From Escherichia coli (GTDB taxonomy: Bacteria > Pseudomonadota > Gammaproteobacteria > Enterobacterales > Enterobacteriaceae), in the NCBI RefSeq assembly GCF_003334785.1, contig NZ_QOWV01000045.1: DNA of 4,709 bases. One strand, written 5' to 3'. The position numbers and the translations under genes are program-made. Below the pieces are notes generated by a model. The model saw only the letters and a list, made by a program, of their open reading frames with translations. It was not told the DNA's origin and did no database searches. Of this stretch, positions 2,111-2,890 are shown in pieces; the first letter of the stretch is position 1, and each line of letters opens with the position of its first letter.

Positions 2111-2300
2111 GCTTATCCACATTTAACTGCAAGGGACTTCCCCATAAGGTTACAACCGTTCATGTCATAAAGCGCCAGCCGCCAGTCTTACAGGGTGCAA
2201 TGTATCTTTTAAACACCTGTTTATATCTCTTTTAAACTACTTAATTACATTCATTTAAAAAGAAGACTTATTCACTGCCTGTCCTTTGGACAGACAAATA
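2111..2300 (+). other. oriR, origin of vegetative replication (DnaA box plus AT-rich unwinding region)
   Basis: DnaA box at 2113..2121 followed by an AT-rich block around 2205..2275 (TGTATCTTTTAAACACCTGTTTATATCTCTTTTAAACTACTTAATTACATTCATTTAAAAAG). Layout and distance from repA1 fit the roughly 190-bp R1-type origin. Boundaries are approximate. Confidence 0.55.
2113..2121 (+). promoter_or_regulatory. DnaA box (perfect consensus TTATCCACA) at the repA-proximal edge of oriR
   Basis: Exact 9-mer TTATCCACA at 2113..2121, about 175 bp downstream of the repA1 stop, where the oriR DnaA box lies in R1/R100. Confidence 0.65.
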
Positions 2301-2819
2301 TGCACCTCCCACCGCAAGCGGCGGGCCCCAACCGGAGCCACTTTAGTTACAACACACAAAGACAACCTCCAGAAAAACCCCGGTCCCGCGCAGAACTGAA
2401 ACCACAAAGCCCCTCCTCATAACTGAAAAGCGAGGCCGCCCCCGCCCGAAGGGCGGGAACAACATCGCTTTTAATTATGAATGTTGTAACTACATTGTCA
2501 TCGCTGCCAGTCTTCTAGCTGGAAGTCCTCAGTACACGCTCGTAAGCGGCCCTGACGGCCCGCTAACGCGGAGATACGCCCCGACTGCGGGTAAACCCTT
2601 GTCGGGACCACTCCGACCGCGCACAGAAGCTTTCTCATGACTGAAAGCGGGTATAGTCTGGCAGGGCTGGGGATGGGTAAGGTGAAATCTATCAGTCAGT
2701 ACCGGCTTACGCCGGGCTTCGGCGGTTTTACTCCGGTATCATATGAAACAACGGAGTGCCGCCTTCCATGCCGCTGGCGCGGCATCAGGATAACTGAAGA
2801 GTGACAGTACACATCAACA

Positions 2820-2890
2820 TCAAACAGACTTGTTAAGCAGTCTTTCAGGGTGTAAGGTGAAGACCTGTTAAACAGTCTCAGAGGTGTGTT
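2820..2890 (+). promoter_or_regulatory. Candidate promoter/operator of the toxin-antitoxin operon with three iterated 9-mers
   Basis: Three copies of AA(A/G)CAG(A/T)CT at 2822..2830, 2835..2843 and 2870..2878, in the 70 bp upstream of the antitoxin ATG, with GAGG (2881..2884) as ribosome-binding site. Iterated sites overlapping the promoter are typical of autoregulated toxin-antitoxin operons. The promoter hexamers were not confidently placed. Confidence 0.35.

What the first reader, a model, noticed from the sequence alone, without database searches (positions are those of the whole stretch)
2291..2819. About 530 bp of ORF-free, GC-rich, hairpin-rich DNA between oriR and the toxin-antitoxin operon
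There is no ORF of 69 aa or more on either strand, but several strong local structures. These are CCCGCCC-GAA-GGGCGGG (2441..2457), ATGCCGC-TGGC-GCGGCAT (2768..2785) and CCGGC-TTAC-GCCGG followed by GGCGGTTTTA (2702..2729). In R100-type plasmids this position holds repA4/tir-type stability functions, which I cannot identify here. The region could carry an unannotated small RNA, the lagging-strand priming and termination signals of the replicon, or remnants of deleted genes.
Basis: partly seen in the sequence, partly recalled or inferred. Interest (0 to 1): 0.3.

Follow-up and report, generated by a model that had tools for sequence, protein, structure and literature searches.

The report
IncFII plasmid replication terminators and priming site
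This ORF-free, hairpin-rich stretch is the already characterised region just downstream of the replication origin of R1/R100-type plasmids, carrying two opposed Tus-binding replication terminators and the conserved site where leading-strand synthesis is primed, so it is ordinary.

Summary
There is no ORF above 55 aa, all three hairpins sit at the stated coordinates, and the region folds better than shuffles (z -4.5).

The interpretation "cannot identify repA4-type functions" is wrong. Window 2291-2785 is 93.5% identical to the oriR-distal "repA4" region of plasmid R100, and more than 5000 plasmid records hold it.

The region contains:
- Two exact matches to the Tus-binding Ter consensus, at 2340-2362 (-) and 2474-2496 (+). 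They are inverted with their blocking faces inward, like terRL/terRR of R1.
- A nearly invariant 93-nt block (2534-2626). It is the best candidate for the primase-dependent leading-strand priming signal (G site).
- Several hairpins kept by compensatory changes across IncFII-family replicons of many Enterobacterales.

No ORF is conserved, and there is no Rfam, Pfam or NCBIfam match. Homology to R100 ends exactly at 2785. There a stbD/stbE toxin-antitoxin cassette replaces tir/pemIK, a junction found in at least 404 plasmids.

Three points remain open: the exact primer start, the role of the hairpin between the Ter sites, and the role of the three right-hand hairpins.

Verdict: already known backbone, low interest.

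The parts
2113..2121 (+). DnaA box TTATCCACA at the repA-proximal end of oriR (oriR is roughly 2105-2292). Given as context and as the left boundary of the feature.
   Evidence: Exact single match. The oriR region aligns to R100. A DnaA box in oriR of R1 and of the IncFII plasmid pEntH10407 is described in PMC5883639 and PMC2762410.
2300..2422 (+). Truncated remnant of the 'repA4' ORF: 40 aa here against 128 aa in R100. Not a conserved coding sequence.
   Evidence: ORF list. The R100 ORF is L002 40032-40418. A 1-nt deletion relative to R100 lies at alignment column 488. The start codon is absent in most family members, and the longest stop-free frame changes strand and frame between replicons. 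No Pfam or NCBIfam match.
2308..2325 (.). Small conserved hairpin CCCACCG-CAAG-CGGCGGG just left of the first Ter site.
   Evidence: Its inner 4 pairs (2311-2314 with 2319-2322), which were the ones counted, are kept by compensatory changes: pair 17-27 is UA in 12 and CG in 6 sequences, and pair 19-25 is GC in 16 and AU in 1. On its own the fold is not better than shuffles (z -0.3).
2340..2362 (-). Ter site, equivalent to terRL of R1. The 23-mer on the minus strand is TCTTTGTGTGTTGTAACTAAAGT. Its non-permissive face points right, so it should block leftward-moving forks.
   Evidence: Exact match to GNRNGTTGTAAYKA at 2344-2357 (-). It matches TerA at 19 of 23 positions, with G6 present. The polarity rule was checked on MG1655 TerB (+ strand, just upstream of tus) and TerA (- strand). 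The site is conserved at the same place in R100 and in most of 25 IncFII-family loci.
2426..2472 (.). Two-tier hairpin between the two Ter sites. It looks like a bidirectional terminator. Its function is not established.
   Evidence: Folds at -15.3 kcal/mol, z -3.6. The scan calls it terminator-like on the minus strand. Compensatory changes occur in both stems: pair 154-162 is CG in 10 and GC in 6 sequences; pair 152-164 is GC in 14, CG in 2 and AU in 1; pair 141-175 is GC in 15 and CG in 2. Overall 96% of cells pair, against 28-47% for slid controls, and 0 of 500 shuffles reach the observed values.
2474..2496 (+). Ter site, equivalent to terRR of R1. The 23-mer is ATTATGAATGTTGTAACTACATT. Its non-permissive face points left, toward oriR, so it should block rightward-moving forks.
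   Evidence: Exact match to the consensus at 2479-2492 (+). It matches TerB at 18 of 23 positions, with G6 present. Orientation was argued as for the other site. It is conserved in R100 and in the family. Chance expectation for an exact match is about 0.01 per 3 kb.
2534..2626 (-). Nearly invariant block with hairpins 2545-2564 and 2579-2608 enclosed by GGAG/CTCC. It is the best candidate for the core of the primase-dependent leading-strand priming signal (G site). The bottom strand is the inferred template.
   Evidence: It is the most conserved non-coding stretch downstream of repA in 27 replicons whose RepA is only about 75% identical: per-20-nt identity to the window is 0.69-0.92 and at least 0.78 in four of the five bins (alignments). 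The hairpins are supported by rare compensatory changes. A shortened copy lies elsewhere on F. Its position fits the review statement that both ter sites lie between oriR and the leading-strand start. The strand and the exact start are inferred, not shown.
2637..2804 (+). 55-aa ORF annotated 'hypothetical protein' (WP_164722579.1) in the source record. Probably not a gene.
   Evidence: Annotation. The ATG is not conserved outside R100-like plasmids, and the ORF runs across the homology break at 2785. No NCBIfam match.
2697..2785 (.). Cluster of three conserved hairpins at the right edge of the replicon module: 2702-2715 (CCGGC-TTAC-GCCGG), 2721-2763 (GGCGG...CCGCC with inner ACTCCG/CGGAGT) and 2768-2785 (ATGCCGC-TGGC-GCGGCAT). 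On the bottom strand the first hairpin is followed directly by TACTG (2701..2697). The cluster may be part of the G site or a second priming signal. Its function is not established.
   Evidence: Folds. Compensatory changes: the stem of 2721-2763 is CG in 15 and UA in 3 sequences at pair 205-245; the last hairpin is CG 14/GC 2/AU 1 and GC 15/CG 2; the first hairpin is CG 17/GC 1 and GC 17/CG 1. Overall 97.9% of cells pair, against 30-44% for slid controls, and 0 of 500 shuffles reach the observed values. G4 and F ssiA also show a hairpin followed by (C)TACTG.
2786..2890 (+). Start of a different module: the upstream region of the stbD/stbE (RelB/RelE-type) operon, with two palindromic 18-mers at 2826-2843 and 2861-2878. 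The last 34 nt of the finding (2786-2819) belong here, not to the replicon.
   Evidence: Identity to R100 falls from 93.5% to 56% at 2785/2786. Family conservation drops to 0.1-0.3. Repeats (D4). CDS annotation. The same junction occurs in at least 404 plasmid records and in pEntH10407.

Best explanation
The interval is the cis-acting, non-coding 'repA4' region of an IncFII (R1/R100/NR1-type) replicon.

Proposed working order:
1. RepA is made from 1068-1937. With DnaA (box at 2113-2121) it opens oriR, and helicase is loaded.
2. Unwinding exposes a primase-recognised single-stranded signal (G site) a few hundred bp to the right. Its core is most likely the invariant block 2534-2626, read on the bottom strand. 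DnaG lays down the primer for a leading strand that runs rightward, away from repA, around the plasmid.
3. DNA synthesis running back toward oriR is stopped by Tus bound at the left Ter site (2340-2362, blocking face to the right).
4. After one round, the fork returns through repA and oriR. It passes the left Ter site from its permissive side and is arrested by Tus at the right Ter site (2474-2496, blocking face to the left). It therefore cannot displace the 5' end of the new strand and switch to rolling-circle or multimer-forming replication.

Shown here: sequence identity with R100; exact Ter consensus matches and their orientation; conservation and covariation of the elements; absence of a conserved ORF.

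Taken from the literature: what these elements do in R1.

Inferred: that they do the same in this plasmid; which block and strand is the G site; and the role of the extra hairpins. The hairpin between the Ter sites is perhaps a bidirectional transcription terminator insulating oriR and the Ter sites. The right-hand cluster is perhaps part of the priming signal or a second one.
For: - The window is an IncFII replicon, in this order: copB, CopA RNA (Rfam 101.7 bits), tap, repA1, DnaA box/oriR, this region, stbDE.
- Window 2291-2785 is 93.5% identical to R100 downstream of repA1.
- At least 5000 plasmid records hold the region, and 4987 of them cover at least 80% of it.
- There are two exact Ter-consensus matches in inverted orientation 122 bp apart. 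The expected number is 0.13 even with one mismatch allowed.
- The polarity rule was verified on E. coli TerA and TerB. It puts both blocking faces inward.
- This matches the published R1 layout. terRL and terRR lie between oriR and the leading-strand start. terRL stops the counter-clockwise fork. terRR stops the clockwise fork after one round. Loss of Tus gives rolling circles, multimers and instability (PMC10331603; PMC4999828).
- The repA4 region is reported to hold the ter sites and to matter for stability. Transposon insertions in it are depleted in pEC958 (PMC4398462).
- The Ter pair is conserved at the same distance from repA in Yersinia, Pantoea, Erwinia, Citrobacter, Klebsiella, Lelliottia and other replicons with about 75% RepA identity.
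- Block 2534-2626 is nearly invariant across that set.
- A shortened copy of the block exists elsewhere on F.
- The hairpins covary.
Against: - I could not read the primary mapping papers (Masai & Arai 1989; Bernander et al. 1992; Tanaka et al. 1994; Jiang et al. 1993; Krabbe et al. 1997). The assignment of the G site to 2534-2626 and to the bottom strand therefore rests on position, conservation and my recollection of those papers.
- No CTG start triplet is conserved across the family next to that block.
- My recollections '~380-400 bp downstream of oriR' and 'near the 3' end of repA4' would fit 2640-2700 better than 2531.
- BLAST finds no significant similarity to phage G4 oric or to F ssiA.
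- The right Ter site shows its blocking face to a helicase leaving oriR rightward. This is hard to reconcile with unwinding from oriR to the G site. It is a property of the published R1 layout, not of this plasmid.
- Tus binding and priming were not and cannot be tested here.
Confidence: 0.88

Rival explanations
1. The hairpins are the structure of an unannotated small or cis-regulatory RNA transcribed from this interval.
For: Covarying helices would look the same for an RNA as for single-stranded DNA. G.T-type pairs outnumber A.C-type ones on the + strand, 7 to 3 and 14 to 4. An RT-qPCR amplicon equivalent to about 2393-2514 was detected in another IncFII plasmid, but that assay was not strand-specific (PMC11237657).
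Against: There is no Rfam match at E <= 1 anywhere in 2291-2819, while CopA in the same window scores 101.7 bits. Only one promoter-like site was found against 0.9 expected, and it overlaps a Ter site. The wobble count is biased because the structure was derived on the + strand. The most conserved parts are invariant in sequence, which fits protein recognition of DNA. Known DNA-level functions already account for the region.
Confidence: 0.06
2. The region is decayed coding sequence: a broken repA4 gene plus remains of the deleted tir gene, with no function of its own.
For: The repA4 ORF is cut to 40 aa here, against 128 aa in R100, by a 1-nt deletion. tir and pemIK are absent and are replaced by stbDE.
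Against: Non-coding blocks are more conserved than oriR itself across replicons with 75% RepA identity. Start codons and frames are not conserved. Hairpins are kept by compensatory changes. No protein family matches RepA4. Transposon insertions in the region destabilise pEC958. Homology to R100 stops cleanly at 2785, before tir, so no tir remnant is present.
Confidence: 0.03
3. The GC-rich hairpins are mainly intrinsic transcription terminators or insulators. They would keep transcription from repA on one side and the cargo genes on the other out of oriR, the Ter sites and the priming site.
For: The 2426-2472 hairpin has an A-run before it and a T-run after it. It is called terminator-like on the minus strand, and 2710-2724 is called so on the + strand. 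From memory (Mohanty, Sahoo & Bastia 1996), transcription through Ter sites is known to impair Tus arrest.
Against: The T-runs are not conserved in the family for 2710-2724 or 2768-2785. The internal-loop sequences of the 2426-2472 hairpin are conserved, which a plain terminator does not need. This explains at most some hairpins, not the Ter pair or the invariant block. It complements the main explanation rather than replacing it.
Confidence: 0.25

Closest known systems
oriR-distal 'repA4' region of IncFII plasmids R1, R100 and NR1 (terRL/terRR plus leading-strand start / G site)
   Same: Same position directly after repA1 and oriR. Window 2291-2785 is 93.5% identical to R100. Both Ter sites sit at the same places and in the same orientation. 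The same conserved block and hairpins are present (layout as in PMC10331603, and PMC4398462).
   Different: The repA4 ORF is truncated to 40 aa by a 1-nt deletion. At 2786 the backbone joins stbD/stbE instead of tir-pemI-pemK. This variant junction is itself common: at least 404 records, and pEntH10407.
Chromosomal Tus-Ter replication fork trap of Escherichia coli (TerA-J)
   Same: The 14-bp core consensus is matched exactly, including G6 (the partner of the flipped C6). The sites match TerA and TerB at 17-19 of 23 positions. The two sites are opposed, so forks can enter but not leave.
   Different: The trap is only 122 bp wide (Ter core start to core start, 2357 to 2479) and lies next to the origin rather than opposite it. 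It enforces unidirectional replication and stops a single fork after one round, instead of receiving two converging forks.
Primase-dependent priming signals (G sites): phage G4 complementary-strand origin and G4-type ssi of plasmids
   Same: A run of stable hairpins in single-stranded DNA. On the bottom strand, hairpins are followed by TACTG, like G4 (hairpin I + CTACTG) and F ssiA (hairpin + ACTACTG).
   Different: There is no significant primary-sequence similarity to G4 or to F ssiA. The hairpin number and spacing differ. The start triplet is not conserved through the IncFII family. Activity was not tested.
Related element on plasmid F (NC_002483 40689-40815)
   Same: It shares the left part of the invariant block (87% over 39 nt), GTCGGGAC, CACAnAAG, the GCTGG..ATGGG motif and a following hairpin, in the same order.
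   Different: It lacks the middle part (about 2572-2597). It has no adjacent Ter pair or IncFII oriR. I do not know its function on F.

Membership tests
Tus-binding Ter site | Match to the core consensus GNRNGTTGTAAYKA (positions 6-19), including G6 | tested here: met
   Two exact matches, at 2344-2357 (-) and 2479-2492 (+). Expected 0.13 per window even with one mismatch allowed. The 23-mers match TerA and TerB at 17-19 of 23 positions.
Tus-binding Ter site | Polar orientation consistent with a fork trap (blocking faces inward) | tested here: met
   The rule that the G6 side is the blocking side was checked on MG1655: TerB is on the + strand upstream of tus and TerA is on the - strand. The left site then blocks leftward forks and the right site blocks rightward forks. 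That TerB stops clockwise forks and TerA stops anticlockwise forks is established knowledge.
Tus-binding Ter site | Binding of Tus and tus-dependent fork arrest | not testable with these tools
   Shown for R1 according to reviews, not for this plasmid. The host species encodes tus.
IncFII (R1/R100) repA4 / ori-distal region | Lies directly downstream of repA1 and oriR and is homologous to the R100 region | tested here: met
   93.5% identity over 2291-2785, colinear from the repA1 stop. The replicon genes and CopA are present.
IncFII (R1/R100) repA4 / ori-distal region | Intact repA4 open reading frame | tested here: not met
   40 aa here against 128 aa in R100. The ORF is not conserved in the wider family either, so it names the region rather than defines its function.
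IncFII (R1/R100) repA4 / ori-distal region | Order oriR, then two ter sites, then the leading-strand start | tested here: inconclusive
   The order oriR, Ter(-), Ter(+) is shown. The leading-strand start is only inferred to lie at 2530-2700.
G4-type primase-dependent priming signal (G site) | Stable hairpins in the single-stranded template, conserved among related replicons | tested here: met
   Folds. Covariation and controls. Block 2534-2626 is nearly invariant.
G4-type primase-dependent priming signal (G site) | 5'-CTG-3' start triplet 3' of the hairpins on the leading-strand template | tested here: inconclusive
   Bottom-strand candidates lie at 2532..2530, 2663..2661 and 2699..2697. Only the second sits in a motif conserved in most of the family.
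G4-type primase-dependent priming signal (G site) | Sequence similarity to phage G4 oric or to other plasmid G sites | tested here: inconclusive
   No significant match to G4 or F ssiA. A clear partial copy lies on F at 40689-40815, but its activity is unknown to me.
G4-type primase-dependent priming signal (G site) | Primase- and SSB-dependent primer synthesis on the cloned single strand | not testable with these tools
   This needs an M13 origin-defective plaque assay or an in vitro priming assay.
Known structured RNA family (Rfam) | Covariance-model match | tested here: not met
   No match at E <= 1 in 2291-2819. The only matches in the window are CopA and weak repZ/repBA pseudoknot hits at 904-1033.
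Protein-coding gene (RepA4, or the annotated 55-aa hypothetical protein) | Conserved reading frame and a protein-family match | tested here: not met
   No NCBIfam or Pfam match. Start codons and frames are not conserved.

The most novel reading that the evidence does not exclude
Two elements may be functional parts of IncFII replication that have not been characterised. One is the two-tier hairpin between the Ter sites (2426-2472), which has a covarying stem and conserved internal-loop sequence. The other is the three-hairpin cluster at the replicon edge (2697-2785). Possible roles are a second, separately acting priming signal, or an insulator that protects the Tus-Ter complexes. If so, they would be newly recognised here through compensatory changes across Enterobacterales.
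Probability: 0.15. Interest if true: 0.3.

Novelty: already known. Interest (0 to 1): 0.1.

Why it matters
For annotation, the practical point is that this ORF-free gap should not be left blank or labelled 'hypothetical protein'. It occurs in thousands of clinically important IncF resistance and virulence plasmids. It should be labelled as cis-acting replication DNA: two Ter sites and the leading-strand priming region.

These elements enforce one-way, once-around replication and help keep the plasmid monomeric and stably inherited. Nothing here changes current understanding.

The family-wide alignment adds a small amount. It shows that the Ter pair, an invariant 93-nt block and several covarying hairpins are shared by IncFII-type replicons from Yersinia to Pantoea.

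Tried and rejected
- **BLAST against phages.** Window 2497-2700 against 50,697 phage records in distant mode gave only chance hits at E about 8.
- **Short-word BLAST against G4 oric and F ssiA.** It gave only 7-10-mers, so a 'homology to G4' claim cannot be supported by sequence.
- **Rfam at E <= 1.** Nothing in the interval.
- **NCBIfam and Pfam.** Nothing for R100 RepA4 or for the two local ORFs.
- **Strand-of-function test.** I counted G.T against A.C pairs in the conserved helices. The result, 7 to 3 and 14 to 4, is inconclusive. The structure was derived on the + strand, and one column supplies most of the counts.
- **My first assignment of the primer start.** I placed it at the bottom-strand CTG 2532..2530. 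I downgraded it to one of three candidates, because that CTG is not conserved in the family and other positions fit my recollection of the published distances better.
- **The 'ssiA' label in a miniR1 vector paper.** I did not use it as evidence, because it may refer to a vector-derived element.
- **Third GTTGTAAC core at 2149-2156 (-) inside oriR.** It fails the consensus at three positions (G6, K18, A19; sequence read, core located). The 1-mismatch site at 443-456 has a core change. Neither is counted as a Ter site.
- **Primary papers I could not obtain.** PMC206589, PMC557023, PMC205550, PMC98921, the Lilly & Camps review and the R1 sequence paper. The R1 record KY749247 is not in the plasmid collection.
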